Of a DNA stretch of 64,000 bases, positions 45,001-48,000 are shown piece by piece. Source of the DNA: Mizuhopecten yessoensis (lineage: Eukaryota); assembly GCF_002113885.1 (NCBI RefSeq), contig NW_018408747.1:59655-123654 (forward strand), written 5' to 3'. The position numbers were made by a program. Each line of letters starts with the position of its first letter. The first letter of the stretch is position 1.

Positions 45001-48000
45001 TCATACATTGCTTCATTGTCACTATACAATTTGTTTTTGAGATTTAACAAGAAGCTTTCCGAACAGAAAATTAATATATAAGGTATTCTTTAGATGTGTT
45101 TAACTGTAGAGAGCTAAATAAAATTGGATTCGGTATATAAACTTAGTATCTAAGGGTAGGCAGAAAAATGGAATAGAAATTATTTTTTTCGGAACACTTT
45201 TTCTTTAACAAAACGATTGTATATGAAATTAGATGATTTGATTAGCTAAACCTTGTTAGTTCAAATGATTGTCGGAACAAAAGACACAAGTAACATGTTC
45301 ATCTTGTTAACAGTTCAACTTTTCGATTTATAGGTATTCCTTTCAGAACGCAAAAATGAACACCTATATATGTATGTGTTTGGCTTCATGCCTCTTGGTC
45401 GCTGTAAGCGCTGCAGGTAAGAATCATTTAACAAAATAATCATTTTTTGATTTTATGTATGAAATATAATAAAAGCTTAATTTTGAAATAAAAAAACAAA
45501 TTAAAGTATAAACTAGTAGACTTCCAACAGATTAAGATAGTAATACCTTTATTTACATTGATTCTGTAATAATGAATTATCAATATGATTTTCCAAATTT
45601 TAGTGTATTGAAAACCCTTTTTACTTTTTTGAAAATTTAGAAAAGCAAAATTAAACAATAGTATAAAACAGGAGACATCAAACAAATTAAAATATCAATA
45701 CCTTTATTTACATTGATTCTGTAATAATGCATTATCAATTTGACTTTCCATATTTAAAATAGCTTTGTAAGCTGAGTTTGAAGCTTTCGTAATCATCATT
45801 TTATGGTATGACTTGACAATCCTTGGAATGGCACATATAACTAATGAACAATAAATGATAGCATTAAAGATATATTTACAGTAATCAAATGCTAATGGTA
45901 TATATGAAATATCTATTACTGACAGGATATGGAAATGGATTCGGAAACGGAAATGGTAACGGAAATGGCGTCGGAAAGGGATACGGCAATGGCGCCAGCA
46001 ACGGATACGGCAATGGCGCCAGTAACGGATACGGCAATGGCGCCATAAACGGATACGGCAATGGCGCCAGTAACGGAAACGGCAATGGCGCTAGTAACGG
46101 AAACGGCAATGGCGCTAGTAACGGATACGGCAATGGCGCCGGTAACGGCGGTGGACGTATGTTTTCATTTAATAAATCATTATATAAAACGAACAGAAAG
46201 TGATTCTGATAACTGATTTCAAGATTTATCAAATAATCTACACGGAAAATAAATATCTTAAATAATTTGAGAGGATCATACTGTTAACTGTACCAATATA
46301 ATTGTTATTTTAACGATATGTAGTTAATCAGTTTCAATATGCACTGACTGGTGGGTCAGCCTATTCACAAAGTAATACAATTTGCTGTTAGAAAAACACA
46401 TGTTGAAATATTTATGTTTTAAAGTTTTGACAATAAAATCGTTTATTGTAAACATGTCTGATATATCTAAAAGGAAGAAAAAAATCAGATACATGTAGAT
46501 CGCTTTTAAAATATTTATTAATAACCGTATCATGTGAATGTATTGATTTTTAACCGAACAGCCTTTTTTTTTTTCTCTCTTTCAGGTTACTAGATGACTT
46601 GCCTGTTCGATAAATCTTTCAGTTTATAATAAAATGGATTTAAAATAAAATATTCGGAGAAAATACATTTGTTGCTTGTATATGTTAATGTCAATTTAAA
46701 ATGGTTAGGTTCCTATTGCTATTTGATAACTTAACAAATGGTGAAAGACAGAACAAACTTGTAAATACCATAACAATCAGATGCTTGTTAAAGTGATGTG
46801 TTAATATTTAACAGCATCATAAACATTGAAATTAATTTGTCAATTGATTCAAACTCATATTGATGTTTGTATCAACATATCGAAACTGAATTATTTCCCG
46901 GTAGCGTGTTACACTTTCTTAACACTTCCTACATTTTTTTTATAACTTTATGTGTAATTTTGTAATTGCCATTATGTTGAAATATGGATGCAATTAAAGA
47001 ACAATGTTTTAACTTCAATTGATATTAACTCATAATAATAATAATAAGTTGAGGTTCTTATATACCGCTTTATCAAAATAATAACAAGAAATATGAAGAA
47101 CGAAGCATTCATAAAACATAATATATTGATACAGGAAGTAAAAGAAGTAAAATTTTACTGTACACAATGACTATTTCATGAATATAGGACTCATCAGTGG
47201 GGCTAAAGGTCAAACGAATACATATCTAAATCTAAGGTACTCCGAAAAGTATGTCCCAATCACATTGTGTCATGAAATATTTACAAGAAACGATTAAGGA
47301 TCAGCTTATACATACAGTCAGACTACCGTTCTACAGCCATGAAGCAACACTTGTGTGTCTGTTACGTTCCTCTTCCAAGATACAAGATGGCAGACTCTGC
47401 TGGTGGATTTCTTAGTCCCTCTGAATTACCGTAACCTTGATTTATCCGACCTCTCATGTCTCAGATATTCGATTCGATATCTACACTTGTAACTGTAGCT
47501 AACAATATAATTTGTATCTCTCAAAACATCATTCCGTGTTAATGAAACACCAAATTAAATAATATGATAATTTTTTTTTGCCTATAGTGCATTTGTCTAT
47601 TGTAGATCTTTTTGCAGTGTAATTAACTTTTGGCATAATGTACATATTACCAAATGGTAAAGAAGCAATCACTTGTGTGTACAAATTGTCATGTTCTCCT
47701 CGCTTCCTTTTCCCTTATCATAGACAAATGTGATAACAGTTTTGATAATCAGTCGTTTCCATTAGAGACATATTTTTAAATGGCAAATACAAACACCTGT
47801 GTAGCTAACACTGTCAAGTACTTGTACTGTATGTAATTATAGATAATAACCCAGCACAGGCCGCACAATCTCTCAACACTGATCTTACTAACATAGGTGA
47901 ATGGGCAACAACTTGGGACATTAAATTCAATCCAAGTAAAACAAAATCACTCATATTTTCTAGAAAACAAGACACCCATCACATCCCACTATTTTTCCAA

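What the first reader, a model, noticed from the sequence alone, without database searches (positions are those of the whole stretch)
45356..46593. Gene D encodes, as a stand-alone protein, the same C-terminus predicted for the processed peptide of genes B/C
Seen: relative to unit 2, 577 bp (33212-33788 equivalent) are missing at junction gtttattgt|aaacatgt (~46449). This cleanly removes the micro-exon and Gly/Met exon. Splicing to the terminal exon gives ...GGGRY*, identical to the end expected after RYRR cleavage and RR trimming. The exon is longer (231 versus 183 nt), stays in frame, and shifts to GNGASNGY repeats; promoter and splice sites are intact. Inference: the Gly/Asn/Tyr peptide is a functional product in its own right, not a disposable propeptide.
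Basis: partly seen in the sequence, partly recalled or inferred. Interest (0 to 1): 0.68.

Follow-up and report, generated by a model that had tools for sequence, protein, structure and literature searches.

The report
Truncated abductin-family gene in scallop
Gene D is a shortened copy in a tandem cluster of scallop hinge-rubber (abductin) genes: a 577-base deletion removed the rubber-repeat exon, leaving an intact-looking gene for a small secreted glycine/asparagine/tyrosine-rich protein of unproven function.

Summary
D (45356-46593) has three exons (61, 231, 8 nt). Relative to unit 2 it lacks exactly 577 bp (33212-33788): acceptor, 15-nt micro-exon, intron 3, Gly/Met exon and donor. Splicing 46156/46586 reads ...GGG-R-Y-stop.

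The context changes the reading. The window is Yesso scallop. The Gly/Met/Phe exon carries abductin's GGFGGMGGGX-type repeats. Gene A has Cys6, Cys10, Tyr4 and Tyr20, as reviews describe for abductin. So this is a tandem abductin-family array built from phase-1 exons. B and C are Gly/Asn/Tyr domain + RYRRA linker + abductin domain. A is abductin only. D is the Gly/Asn/Tyr domain only.

The "same C-terminus" is built in. Exons 3, 4 and 5 all begin GTTAC/T and all introns are phase 1, so any exon-2 splice gives R-Y in frame.

A fourth copy, E (57695-58450), lost the same exons through a different deletion and is a pseudogene.

D's intactness is weak evidence of selection: P(intact | neutral) is 0.08-0.42. 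Cleavage at RYRR is plausible but untested. No expression or cross-species data could be reached.

The parts
45327..45334 (+). TATA-like motif tttatagg upstream of D, followed by the conserved block attcctttcagaac
   Evidence: The same motif is in C and E (tatatagg in E); B has ttgtaagg. Promoter function is inferred, not tested.
45356..45416 (+). D exon 1: start codon and signal-peptide exon (20 codons plus 1 nt; phase-1 donor)
   Evidence: It is identical to B over 61 of 61 nt and differs from C at 1 of 61.
45417..45925 (+). D intron 1 (gt...ag), with an internal 122-nt duplication (45479-45600 and 45634-45755)
45926..46156 (+). D exon 2: Gly/Asn/Tyr repeat exon, 231 nt, 7.9 copies of a 24-nt unit
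   Evidence: Composition is Gly 43%, Asn 28%, Ala 9%, Tyr 8%, Ser 7%, with no Met.
46157..46585 (+). D intron 2: a fusion of the left part of B/C intron 2 and the right part of B/C intron 4. The deletion junction is at 46449/46450.
   Evidence: There is 1 nt of microhomology.
46586..46593 (+). Coding part of D's terminal exon: completes Arg, then Tyr, then TAG
46628..46633 (+). AATAAA polyadenylation-type signal downstream of the D stop codon
   Evidence: It is conserved in B and C.
33212..33788 (+). Segment of unit 2 (gene C) that is absent from D: acceptor, micro-exon 33228-33242 (RYRRA), intron 3, abductin-repeat exon 33415-33780, and donor
32220..33928 (+). Gene C, five exons: 32220-32280, 32790-32972, 33228-33242, 33415-33780, 33921-33928
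12105..13901 (+). Gene B, five exons: 12105-12165, 12742-12924, 13230-13244, 13414-13755, 13894-13901
6774..8871 (-). Gene A, abductin-only form: exons 8871-8817, 7918-7226 (693 nt of GGFGGMGGG-type repeats) and 6781-6774 (Gly-Tyr-stop)
57695..58450 (+). Gene E, a short-form pseudogene: exons 57695-57755, 58092-58246 (155 nt, frame-shifted, in-frame stops) and 58443-58450
58285..58312 (+). Relic in E's intron of the last 12 nt of the abductin exon, its donor and the start of intron 4
   Evidence: It matches C 33769-33796 at 23 of 28 positions. 0 of 200 shuffles reach its score. It is collinear with the next matching block.

Best explanation
D is a truncated paralogue in a tandem array of abductin-family genes of the Yesso scallop. 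Abductin is the rubber-like protein of the scallop hinge ligament.

The family is assembled from phase-1 (symmetrical) exons:
- a signal-peptide exon;
- a Gly/Asn/Tyr repeat exon;
- a 15-nt linker micro-exon (RYRRA);
- an exon of GGFGGMGGGX-type elastomer repeats;
- an 8-nt terminal exon that adds a final Tyr.

Shown: a 577-bp genomic deletion with 1 nt of microhomology removed the linker and elastomer exons from D together with their splice sites. Exon 2 can therefore only splice to the terminal exon. Because of the exon design this is automatically in frame and automatically ends Arg-Tyr.

Inferred:
- D is driven by the same promoter type as its neighbours.
- It yields a secreted, disordered, slightly basic protein of about 79 residues. 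It has 7 Tyr, and all 21 Asn of exon 2 sit in Asn-Gly pairs (my reading of the translation).
- If used, it most likely enters the ligament matrix as a Tyr-rich cross-linking or filler component without an elastomer block. It is the stand-alone counterpart of the N-terminal domain of B/C.

I give about even odds between D being maintained for this role and D being a young, still-intact by-product on the path taken by E.
For: Species: a methyltransferase exon at 52232-52654 is 100% identical, over 95% of the query, to an NCBI protein of Mizuhopecten yessoensis.

Abductin identity:
- Reviews (passages read) describe abductin as having a 19-20-residue Ala-rich N-terminus with Cys6, Cys10, Tyr4 and Tyr20. 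They then describe GGFGGMGGGX repeats, 58% Gly, 14 Met in 116 residues, and Tyr at the extremities.
- Gene A has exactly these Cys and Tyr positions.
- Matches to GGFGGMGGG with at most 2 mismatches: 17 in A, 6 in B, 7 in C, 0 in D.
- C exon 4 is 63% Gly, 13% Met and 6% Phe.

Deletion and frame.

Direction of change: E's intron keeps a 28-nt relic of the end of the elastomer exon plus its donor. The common ancestor of B to E therefore had that exon. D and E each retain sequence the other lacks, so they lost the exon through different deletions.

Recency: D's flanks differ from C's by 3.9% upstream and 2.2% downstream.

Design analogy: elastomeric proteins alternate elastomer and cross-linking domains, often one per exon, and abductin is thought to cross-link through Tyr (passages).

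Disorder: an AlphaFold2 model of exon 2 alone has pLDDT 44.7.
Against: - No expression, protein or cross-species evidence could be obtained.
- Abductin membership rests on published descriptions, not on an alignment to a reference abductin. Pfam has no model that matches, and sequence searches fail on this composition.
- The E relic is short: score 31 against a shuffle maximum of 30.
- Gene conversion has made the B/C/D divergences a mosaic, so the age of the deletion is uncertain.
- The other short-form copy, E, is a pseudogene. The differences between D and B/C in exon 2 are mostly amino-acid-changing or repeat turnover. Neither shows constraint.
Confidence: 0.55

Rival explanations
1. B and C are precursors cut by a furin-type convertase behind RYRR and trimmed to ...GGGRY. 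The Gly/Asn/Tyr product is a functional secreted product in its own right, and D is kept by selection because it delivers that product directly.
For: - RYRR fits the R-x-K/R-R convertase pattern (pattern recalled).
- A tetrabasic furin site, RKRR, is described in this scallop's FMRFamide precursor (passage).
- The site sits on its own 15-nt exon with strong splice sites and is identical in B and C over 31 of 31 nt.
- Both predicted cleavage products mimic stand-alone genes: the N-half matches D and the C-half matches the A type, starting A-G-YGGG.
- D is intact and its repeats have expanded in frame.
Against: - The identical end follows from the shared GTTAC exon starts and phase-1 introns.
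- In-frame expansion follows from 24-nt slippage.
- Intactness is expected by chance with probability 0.08-0.42.
- E, which has the same architecture, is dead.
- No motif strings of this family occur in the main text of the scallop neuropeptide survey. Its supplements were closed.
- Cleavage is untested.
Confidence: 0.25
2. D is a recent, selectively neutral deletion derivative, or a presence/absence variant of this individual. It still looks intact only because too little time has passed, and it will decay as E did.
For: - Flank divergence from C is 2-4%.
- P(intact | neutral) is 0.42 at that age and 0.08 at the interior divergence.
- E is a pseudogene with the same architecture.
- Exon-2 changes are mostly non-synonymous or repeat turnover.
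Against: - D's promoter, signal exon (0 of 61 differences from B), all four splice sites, stop codon and AATAAA are unchanged.
- Interior divergence of about 9% without a single disabling change is somewhat unlikely under neutrality (0.08).
- Two independent losses of the same exons could also mean the short form is repeatedly tried because it is useful.
Confidence: 0.3
3. The 577-bp gap is an assembly artefact: a collapse or mis-join in a repetitive tandem array.
For: The assembly has join artefacts elsewhere. Four single-N joins are each flanked by 61-205-nt duplicated overlaps.
Against: - There is no N in or near D.
- Both breakpoints lie in unique intron sequence, not inside the repeats.
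- D carries its own substitutions, its own 48-nt expansion and its own indels along the whole gene.
Confidence: 0.05
4. The Gly/Asn/Tyr product is a glycine-rich antimicrobial peptide, by analogy with Gly/Tyr-rich peptides of nematodes and spiders (analogy recalled).
For: It is small, secreted, slightly basic, Gly/Tyr-rich and encoded in a tandem array.
Against: - It shares promoter type, signal exon and terminal exon with abductin genes.
- It has only two basic residues in about 79.
- No search tied it to any antimicrobial family.
Confidence: 0.05

Closest known systems
Abductin of the scallop hinge ligament (Argopecten irradians cDNA, Cao et al. 1997; known to me here only through review passages)
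   Same: - The N-terminal exon is Ala-rich, with Tyr4 and Cys6. Gene A has Cys6, Cys10, Tyr4 and Tyr20 exactly.
- It is secreted and has Tyr at both ends of the mature chain.
- It sits in the same tandem array as genes that carry GGFGGMGGGX-type repeats.
   Different: - D has none of the elastomer repeats (0 matches).
- D has no Met in exon 2 and 43% rather than about 58% Gly.
- D instead carries GNGA(S/G)NG(Y/N) octapeptide repeats, which the review passages do not mention for abductin.
- B and C combine both domains through an RYRRA linker, which is also not described there.
Shematrins and KRMPs of pearl-oyster shell (passages of PMC3896809)
   Same: They are secreted, Gly/Tyr-rich, low-complexity matrix proteins that end in basic residues followed by a terminal Tyr (the RnKmY signature). 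They form lineage-specific multigene families.
   Different: - D ends with a single Arg before Tyr (A, B and C end K-G-Y), not a cluster of four basic residues.
- The repeats are Asn-rich rather than GnY plus a hydrophobic residue.
- No sequence link could be tested.
Precursors split at furin-type sites, for example the scallop FMRFamide precursor with RKRR (passage of PMC5996578). The Pif shell protein cut at a Kex2-type site is a recalled example that I did not check.
   Same: B and C have an R-x-R-R site exactly at the boundary between two domains, and each domain also exists as a separate gene.
   Different: Cleavage is not shown here. D itself has no such site. The products would be structural low-complexity chains rather than short signalling peptides.
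Elastin-type exon design: alternating elastomer and cross-linking domains, one per exon (passage of PMC3291537)
   Same: There is one domain per exon and all exons are phase-symmetrical. Domains can therefore be lost, skipped or multiplied without breaking the frame. A Tyr-rich domain sits next to an elastomer domain.
   Different: This is an unrelated family. There are only two domain types, and the cross-linking role of the Gly/Asn/Tyr exon is inferred.

Membership tests
Abductin | Ala-rich N-terminal segment of about 20 residues with Cys at positions 6 and 10 and Tyr at 4 and 20. The first 19 residues are taken as the signal peptide (reviews). | tested here: met
   Gene A matches these positions exactly in MNTYICLAVCLVAAVSAA-G-Y. 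D, B and C keep Tyr4 and Cys6 but are two residues longer, with Cys8, Cys12 and Tyr22.
Abductin | A domain of repeats of the type GGFGGMGGGX | tested here: not met
   D has 0 matches to GGFGGMGGG at up to 2 mismatches. A has 17, B has 6 and C has 7. The exon that carries the repeats is deleted in D.
Abductin | Composition of about 58% Gly with unusually high Met (14 of 116 residues) | tested here: not met
   D exon 2 is Gly 43%, Asn 28% and Met 0%. C exon 4 is Gly 63% and Met 13%. A exon 2 is Gly 61% and Met 10%.
Abductin | A conserved Tyr at the C-terminal extremity (the third conserved Tyr, proposed as a cross-link site) | tested here: met
   All five genes end in Tyr, encoded by the 8-nt terminal exon. 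The equivalence to the reviewed 'third Tyr' is inferred.
Abductin | Alignable sequence similarity to a reference abductin | not tested
   No reference abductin sequence was available from any tool. Pfam has no matching model. Searches with the exons gave nothing usable.
Abductin | Presence in the inner hinge ligament, or expression in the mantle that secretes it | not testable with these tools
   No expression or proteome data can be reached.
Shematrin / KRMP | Gly-Tyr-rich repeats with a C-terminal RKKKY-, RRKKY- or RRRKY-type signature | tested here: not met
   D ends GGGRY. A, B and C end GGKGY or GGGKGY. There is one basic residue, not a cluster.
Convertase-processed two-product precursor (applies to B/C, not D) | An R-x-K/R-R site at the domain boundary (pattern recalled) | tested here: met
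   RYRR is encoded across the exon 2 / micro-exon junction in B and C. D has no such site.
Convertase-processed two-product precursor (applies to B/C, not D) | Demonstrated cleavage products | not testable with these tools
   This needs ligament or mantle proteomics.

The most novel reading that the evidence does not exclude
B and C are two-in-one precursors of the scallop hinge rubber. A convertase cuts at RYRR and releases a Tyr/Asn-rich cross-linker and a canonical abductin chain. Genes D and A encode the two halves separately. The array has at least twice (D and E) deleted the elastomer exon. The scallop would then set the ratio of cross-linker to elastomer, and hence ligament stiffness and resilience, by gene copy number. 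The Asn-Gly pairs would add a slow deamidation 'ageing' of the matrix.
Probability: 0.2. Interest if true: 0.7.

Novelty: new variant of a known kind. Interest (0 to 1): 0.45.

Why it matters
According to the reviews read, abductin is the only natural rubber known to work in compression. They also say its cross-linking chemistry is still unknown and that its sequence is known from one short cDNA.

A genomic array would give concrete candidates for how the ligament is cross-linked. This one holds abductin-only genes, genes that fuse abductin to a Tyr/Asn-rich domain, and genes for the Tyr/Asn-rich domain alone. It is also a clean natural example of domain loss through phase-symmetrical exons.

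If D is merely a young by-product, the finding is an ordinary case of gene-family turnover.

Tried and rejected
- **Sequence searches with single exons gave no relatives.** D exon 2 against the 5.8-billion set: 4271 candidates, none at E<=0.001. C exon 4: 8000 candidates scored, none at E<=10. Atlas searches with D exon 2 and A exon 2 gave no usable hit. Pfam gave nothing above noise; the best was E=0.27.
- **phmmer of D exon 2 against 1.84 billion representatives.** It gave 65 hits at E<=0.001. I checked all 65 for the family's N-terminus (MNxYIC), for GGFGGM and for a basic-Tyr C-terminus, and 0 of 65 had any. I read 15 of the 65. They are unrelated Asn-Gly repeat proteins, so these are compositional matches only.
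- **AlphaFold2 on D exon 2.** pLDDT was 44.7, so there is no usable model and no fold search was run.
- **Literature.** Peptide-motif strings found 5 papers (4 listed) holding only GGMGGGMGG; two of the listed titles concern GroEL or Hsp60 tails, and none concerns this family. Scallop, glycine-rich and ligament searches gave no paper on this family, judged by title or abstract start. A first 'abductin' search was swamped by 'abducting'.
- **Shematrin/KRMP membership.** Considered and rejected on the C-terminal signature.
- **Origin of the micro-exon.** It might derive from the terminal exon, from the end of exon 1, or from the exon-2 donor region. The matches are too short (5-11 nt) to decide.
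- **Gene A against gene C outside the exons.** No significant similarity.
- **dN/dS for exon 2.** Not computed, because repeat turnover makes the codon alignment ambiguous.
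Full report
**1. The observation**

I read D and its counterparts directly and tabulated the exons.

- D has three exons: 45356-45416 (61 nt), 45926-46156 (231 nt) and 46586 onward.
- The stop codon is at 46591-46593.
- All splice sites are canonical (CAG|gtaaga, tgacag|G, GAC|gtatgt, ctctttcag|G) and both introns are phase 1.
- The last base of exon 2 (C) plus GT gives Arg. TAC then gives Tyr and TAG ends the frame, so the product ends ...GGG-R-Y.

blastn of D against the window and a MAFFT alignment show that D is collinear with unit 2 except for 33212-33788.

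- These 577 nt are 16 nt of intron 2 with the acceptor, the 15-nt micro-exon, intron 3 (172 nt), exon 4 (366 nt) and 8 nt of intron 4 with the donor.
- One T is common to both flanks.

Exon 2 is 48 nt longer than in B and C.

- The difference is two extra 24-nt units: 7.9 copies in D against 6.4 in B and C, with 0% indels.
- The repeats read GNGASNGY/N in D and GNGAGNGY in B/C.

**2. What the locus is**

A methyltransferase exon at 52232-52654 is 100% identical, over 95% of the query, to an NCBI protein of Mizuhopecten yessoensis, and 58% identical to one of Pecten maximus. The window is therefore Yesso scallop.

A self-comparison shows four tandem units of about 12-13 kb. Each unit carries one Gly-rich gene (B, C, D, E) and one methyltransferase gene.

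- Unit I spans 11257-23442.
- Unit II spans 30048-43196.
- Unit III spans 43191-55759.
- Unit IV starts at 55754.
- An LTR retroelement lies between units I and II.

A fifth gene, A, lies on the minus strand (8871-6774).

The Gly/Met/Phe exon of A, B and C consists of GGFGGMGGG-type repeats.

- Matches at up to 2 mismatches: 17 in A, 6 in B, 7 in C, 0 in D.
- Composition: Gly 61-63%, Met 10-13%, Phe 6-8%.

Review passages (PMC9999432; PMC13052691) describe abductin, the rubber of the scallop hinge ligament, with these features:

- a 19-residue signal peptide;
- GGFGGMGGGX repeats;
- 58% Gly and 14 Met in 116 residues;
- Tyr at the extremities as suspected cross-link sites.

Gene A reproduces those Cys and Tyr positions exactly. 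I therefore read the array as an abductin gene family. I did not see the original 1997 paper and had no reference sequence to align, so membership rests on described features.

**3. The family's design**

Every intron is phase 1 and every internal exon has a length divisible by three (183/231, 15, 342/366, 693 nt).

- Exon 2 of all the genes begins GATAT.
- Exons 3, 4 and 5 of B/C, and the terminal exons of D and E, begin GTTAC or GTTAT.
- Every module therefore starts with x-Tyr.

The architectures are:

| Gene | Architecture |
|---|---|
| A | signal + abductin repeats + Tyr |
| B, C | signal + Gly/Asn/Tyr repeats + RYRRA + abductin repeats + Tyr |
| D | signal + Gly/Asn/Tyr repeats + Tyr |
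| E | as D, but frame-shifted with in-frame stops |

Two further points follow from the sequences.

- The 5' end of the Gly/Asn/Tyr exon matches the 5' end of A's abductin exon at 87% over 23 nt. This suggests the two exon types are old duplicates.
- The C-terminal half of B/C after RYRR would start A-G-YGGGAGSMGG. That is close to A's mature start, A-G-YGGGFGSMGG.

**4. Direction and number of the losses**

E's 196-nt intron 2 contains GATGAGAAAAGGGTAATGATAAACTTGT (58285-58312).

- It aligns at 23 of 28 positions with the last 12 nt of exon 4, the donor, and the start of intron 4 of C (33769-33796).
- 0 of 200 shuffles reach its score (31, against a shuffle maximum of 30).
- It is collinear with the next block, E 58355-58442 matching C 33828-33920 (score 52, 0 of 200 shuffles).

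The ancestor of B to E therefore carried the elastomer exon. D and E each retain sequence the other lacks: E keeps 33769-33788 and D keeps 32973-33211. The losses were therefore two separate deletions. The relic is short, so I rate this as moderate evidence.

**5. Age and constraint**

Divergences are a mosaic.

- In the flanks, C and D are closest: 3.9% upstream and 2.2% downstream, against 5-8% to B.
- In intron 1 and exon 2, B and C are closest (3.5% and 3.3%), while D differs from both by 8-10%.
- This indicates gene conversion between B and C. It also leaves open that C regained exons from B.

The evidence for selection on D is weak.

- C and D differ at 128 of 1984 noncoding positions, with 15 gap events.
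- In a neutral simulation on D's coding positions and splice dinucleotides, 80 of 924 single substitutions are disabling.
- The chance of staying intact is 0.42, 0.16 or 0.08 for per-lineage divergences of 1.5%, 3.2% or 4.5%.
- Frame retention after the deletion is guaranteed by the phase-1 design.
- Frame retention in exon 2 follows from 24-nt slippage.
- E, the only other short-form copy, has a 155-nt exon 2 (length mod 3 = 2) with in-frame stops.

**6. How it most likely works**

Shown: gene structure, deletion, reading frame, family context.

Inferred:

- D is transcribed from a promoter 96% identical to C's.
- The signal peptide is removed after ...VSAA.
- A disordered, slightly basic chain of about 79 residues is secreted (pLDDT 44.7). 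It has 7 Tyr, and every Asn is followed by Gly.

Elastomeric proteins combine elastomer blocks with cross-linking blocks, and abductin is thought to cross-link through Tyr. By that analogy the Gly/Asn/Tyr exon is the likely cross-linking or matrix-interaction domain, and D would supply it without an elastomer block.

Cleavage of B/C at RYRR (an R-x-R-R pattern, recalled) is plausible. A furin site, RKRR, is described for this scallop's FMRFamide precursor. It is untested here.

Rapid deamidation of Asn-Gly pairs, as reported for mussel thread matrix proteins, is a recalled lead only.

**7. Comparison and novelty**

- D fails two defining abductin features (repeats and composition) and keeps the N-terminal and terminal-Tyr features. 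It is a domain-loss variant within the family, not an abductin proper.
- The shematrin/KRMP signature is not met.
- In the paper library, 31 papers hold the word 'abductin'. By title, none concerns abductin genomics or a Gly/Asn/Tyr domain. I read passages in six of them.
- The motif and topic searches found no description of this family.
- Supplementary tables of scallop transcriptome, neuropeptide and genome papers were closed and may list these genes.

**8. Left out**

- I searched exon by exon only. The joined spliced protein was not searched or looked up, so the public annotation of D stays unchecked.
- The closed collections (metagenome and viral contigs) were not used.
- The genome collection on hand holds only bacteria and archaea, so no other scallop genome could be compared.

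**Verdict**

The real content is a modular abductin gene array with two independent losses of the elastomer exon.

Noticed in passing
window 6774-8871 (-), 12105-13901, 32220-33928, 45356-46593, 57695-58450: The whole window is a tandem abductin-family array. One abductin-only gene lies on the minus strand and four Gly/Asn/Tyr-type genes lie on the plus strand. All have phase-1 introns and an 8-nt terminal exon that adds the final Tyr.
   Followed up: yes
window 11958-12079, 12367-12497, 15780-16187, 31576-31793: Four of the five single-N positions (12018, 12432, 15984, 31684) sit in the middle of a two-copy direct duplication of 61-205 nt at 95-99% identity. This looks like unmerged contig overlaps at scaffold joins. 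The N positions were left as they are.
   Followed up: partly
window 23467-30051: There is an LTR retroelement between units I and II. Its direct repeats, 23467-24740 and 28712-30051, are 97.6-99.4% identical. They flank minus-strand ORF fragments with reverse transcriptase, RNase H, integrase, zinc-knuckle and SCAN-like matches, split over several frames.
   Followed up: partly
window 38463-38834, 52232-52654, 61691-62104: Each tandem unit also carries an exon of an NNMT/PNMT/TEMT-type methyltransferase. NCBI names the one at 52232 'indolethylamine N-methyltransferase-like'. The gene pair has therefore been duplicated together.
   Followed up: partly
window 12060-12104 and 13414-13755: Gene B has ttgtaagg where C, D and E have a TATA-like tttatagg or tatatagg. 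Its abductin exon carries several changes of repeat Met or Gly to Ile, Val, Leu or Asp. B may be a weaker or decaying copy, although its frame is open.
   Followed up: no
window 31304-34232 compared with 11257-14250 and 44550-46936: The divergence is a mosaic. The flanks say C and D are sisters, but intron 1, exon 2 and intron 3 say B and C are nearly identical. Gene conversion between B and C is the simplest reading.
   Followed up: partly
window 19423-20142, 39813-40527, 60184-61287: There are minisatellite arrays with 42-nt units in units I and II and a 36-nt unit in unit IV. They lie between the Gly-rich gene and the methyltransferase gene.
   Followed up: no
window 832-1317 (-), 59405-59746 (-): Further short reverse-transcriptase fragments are present, indicating other decayed retroelements.
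   Followed up: no
window 32973-32983 and 33243-33253: The introns after exon 2 and after the micro-exon of C both begin with the same 11 nt, gtaagttttta. This might be a trace of how the micro-exon arose, but it is too short to test.
   Followed up: no
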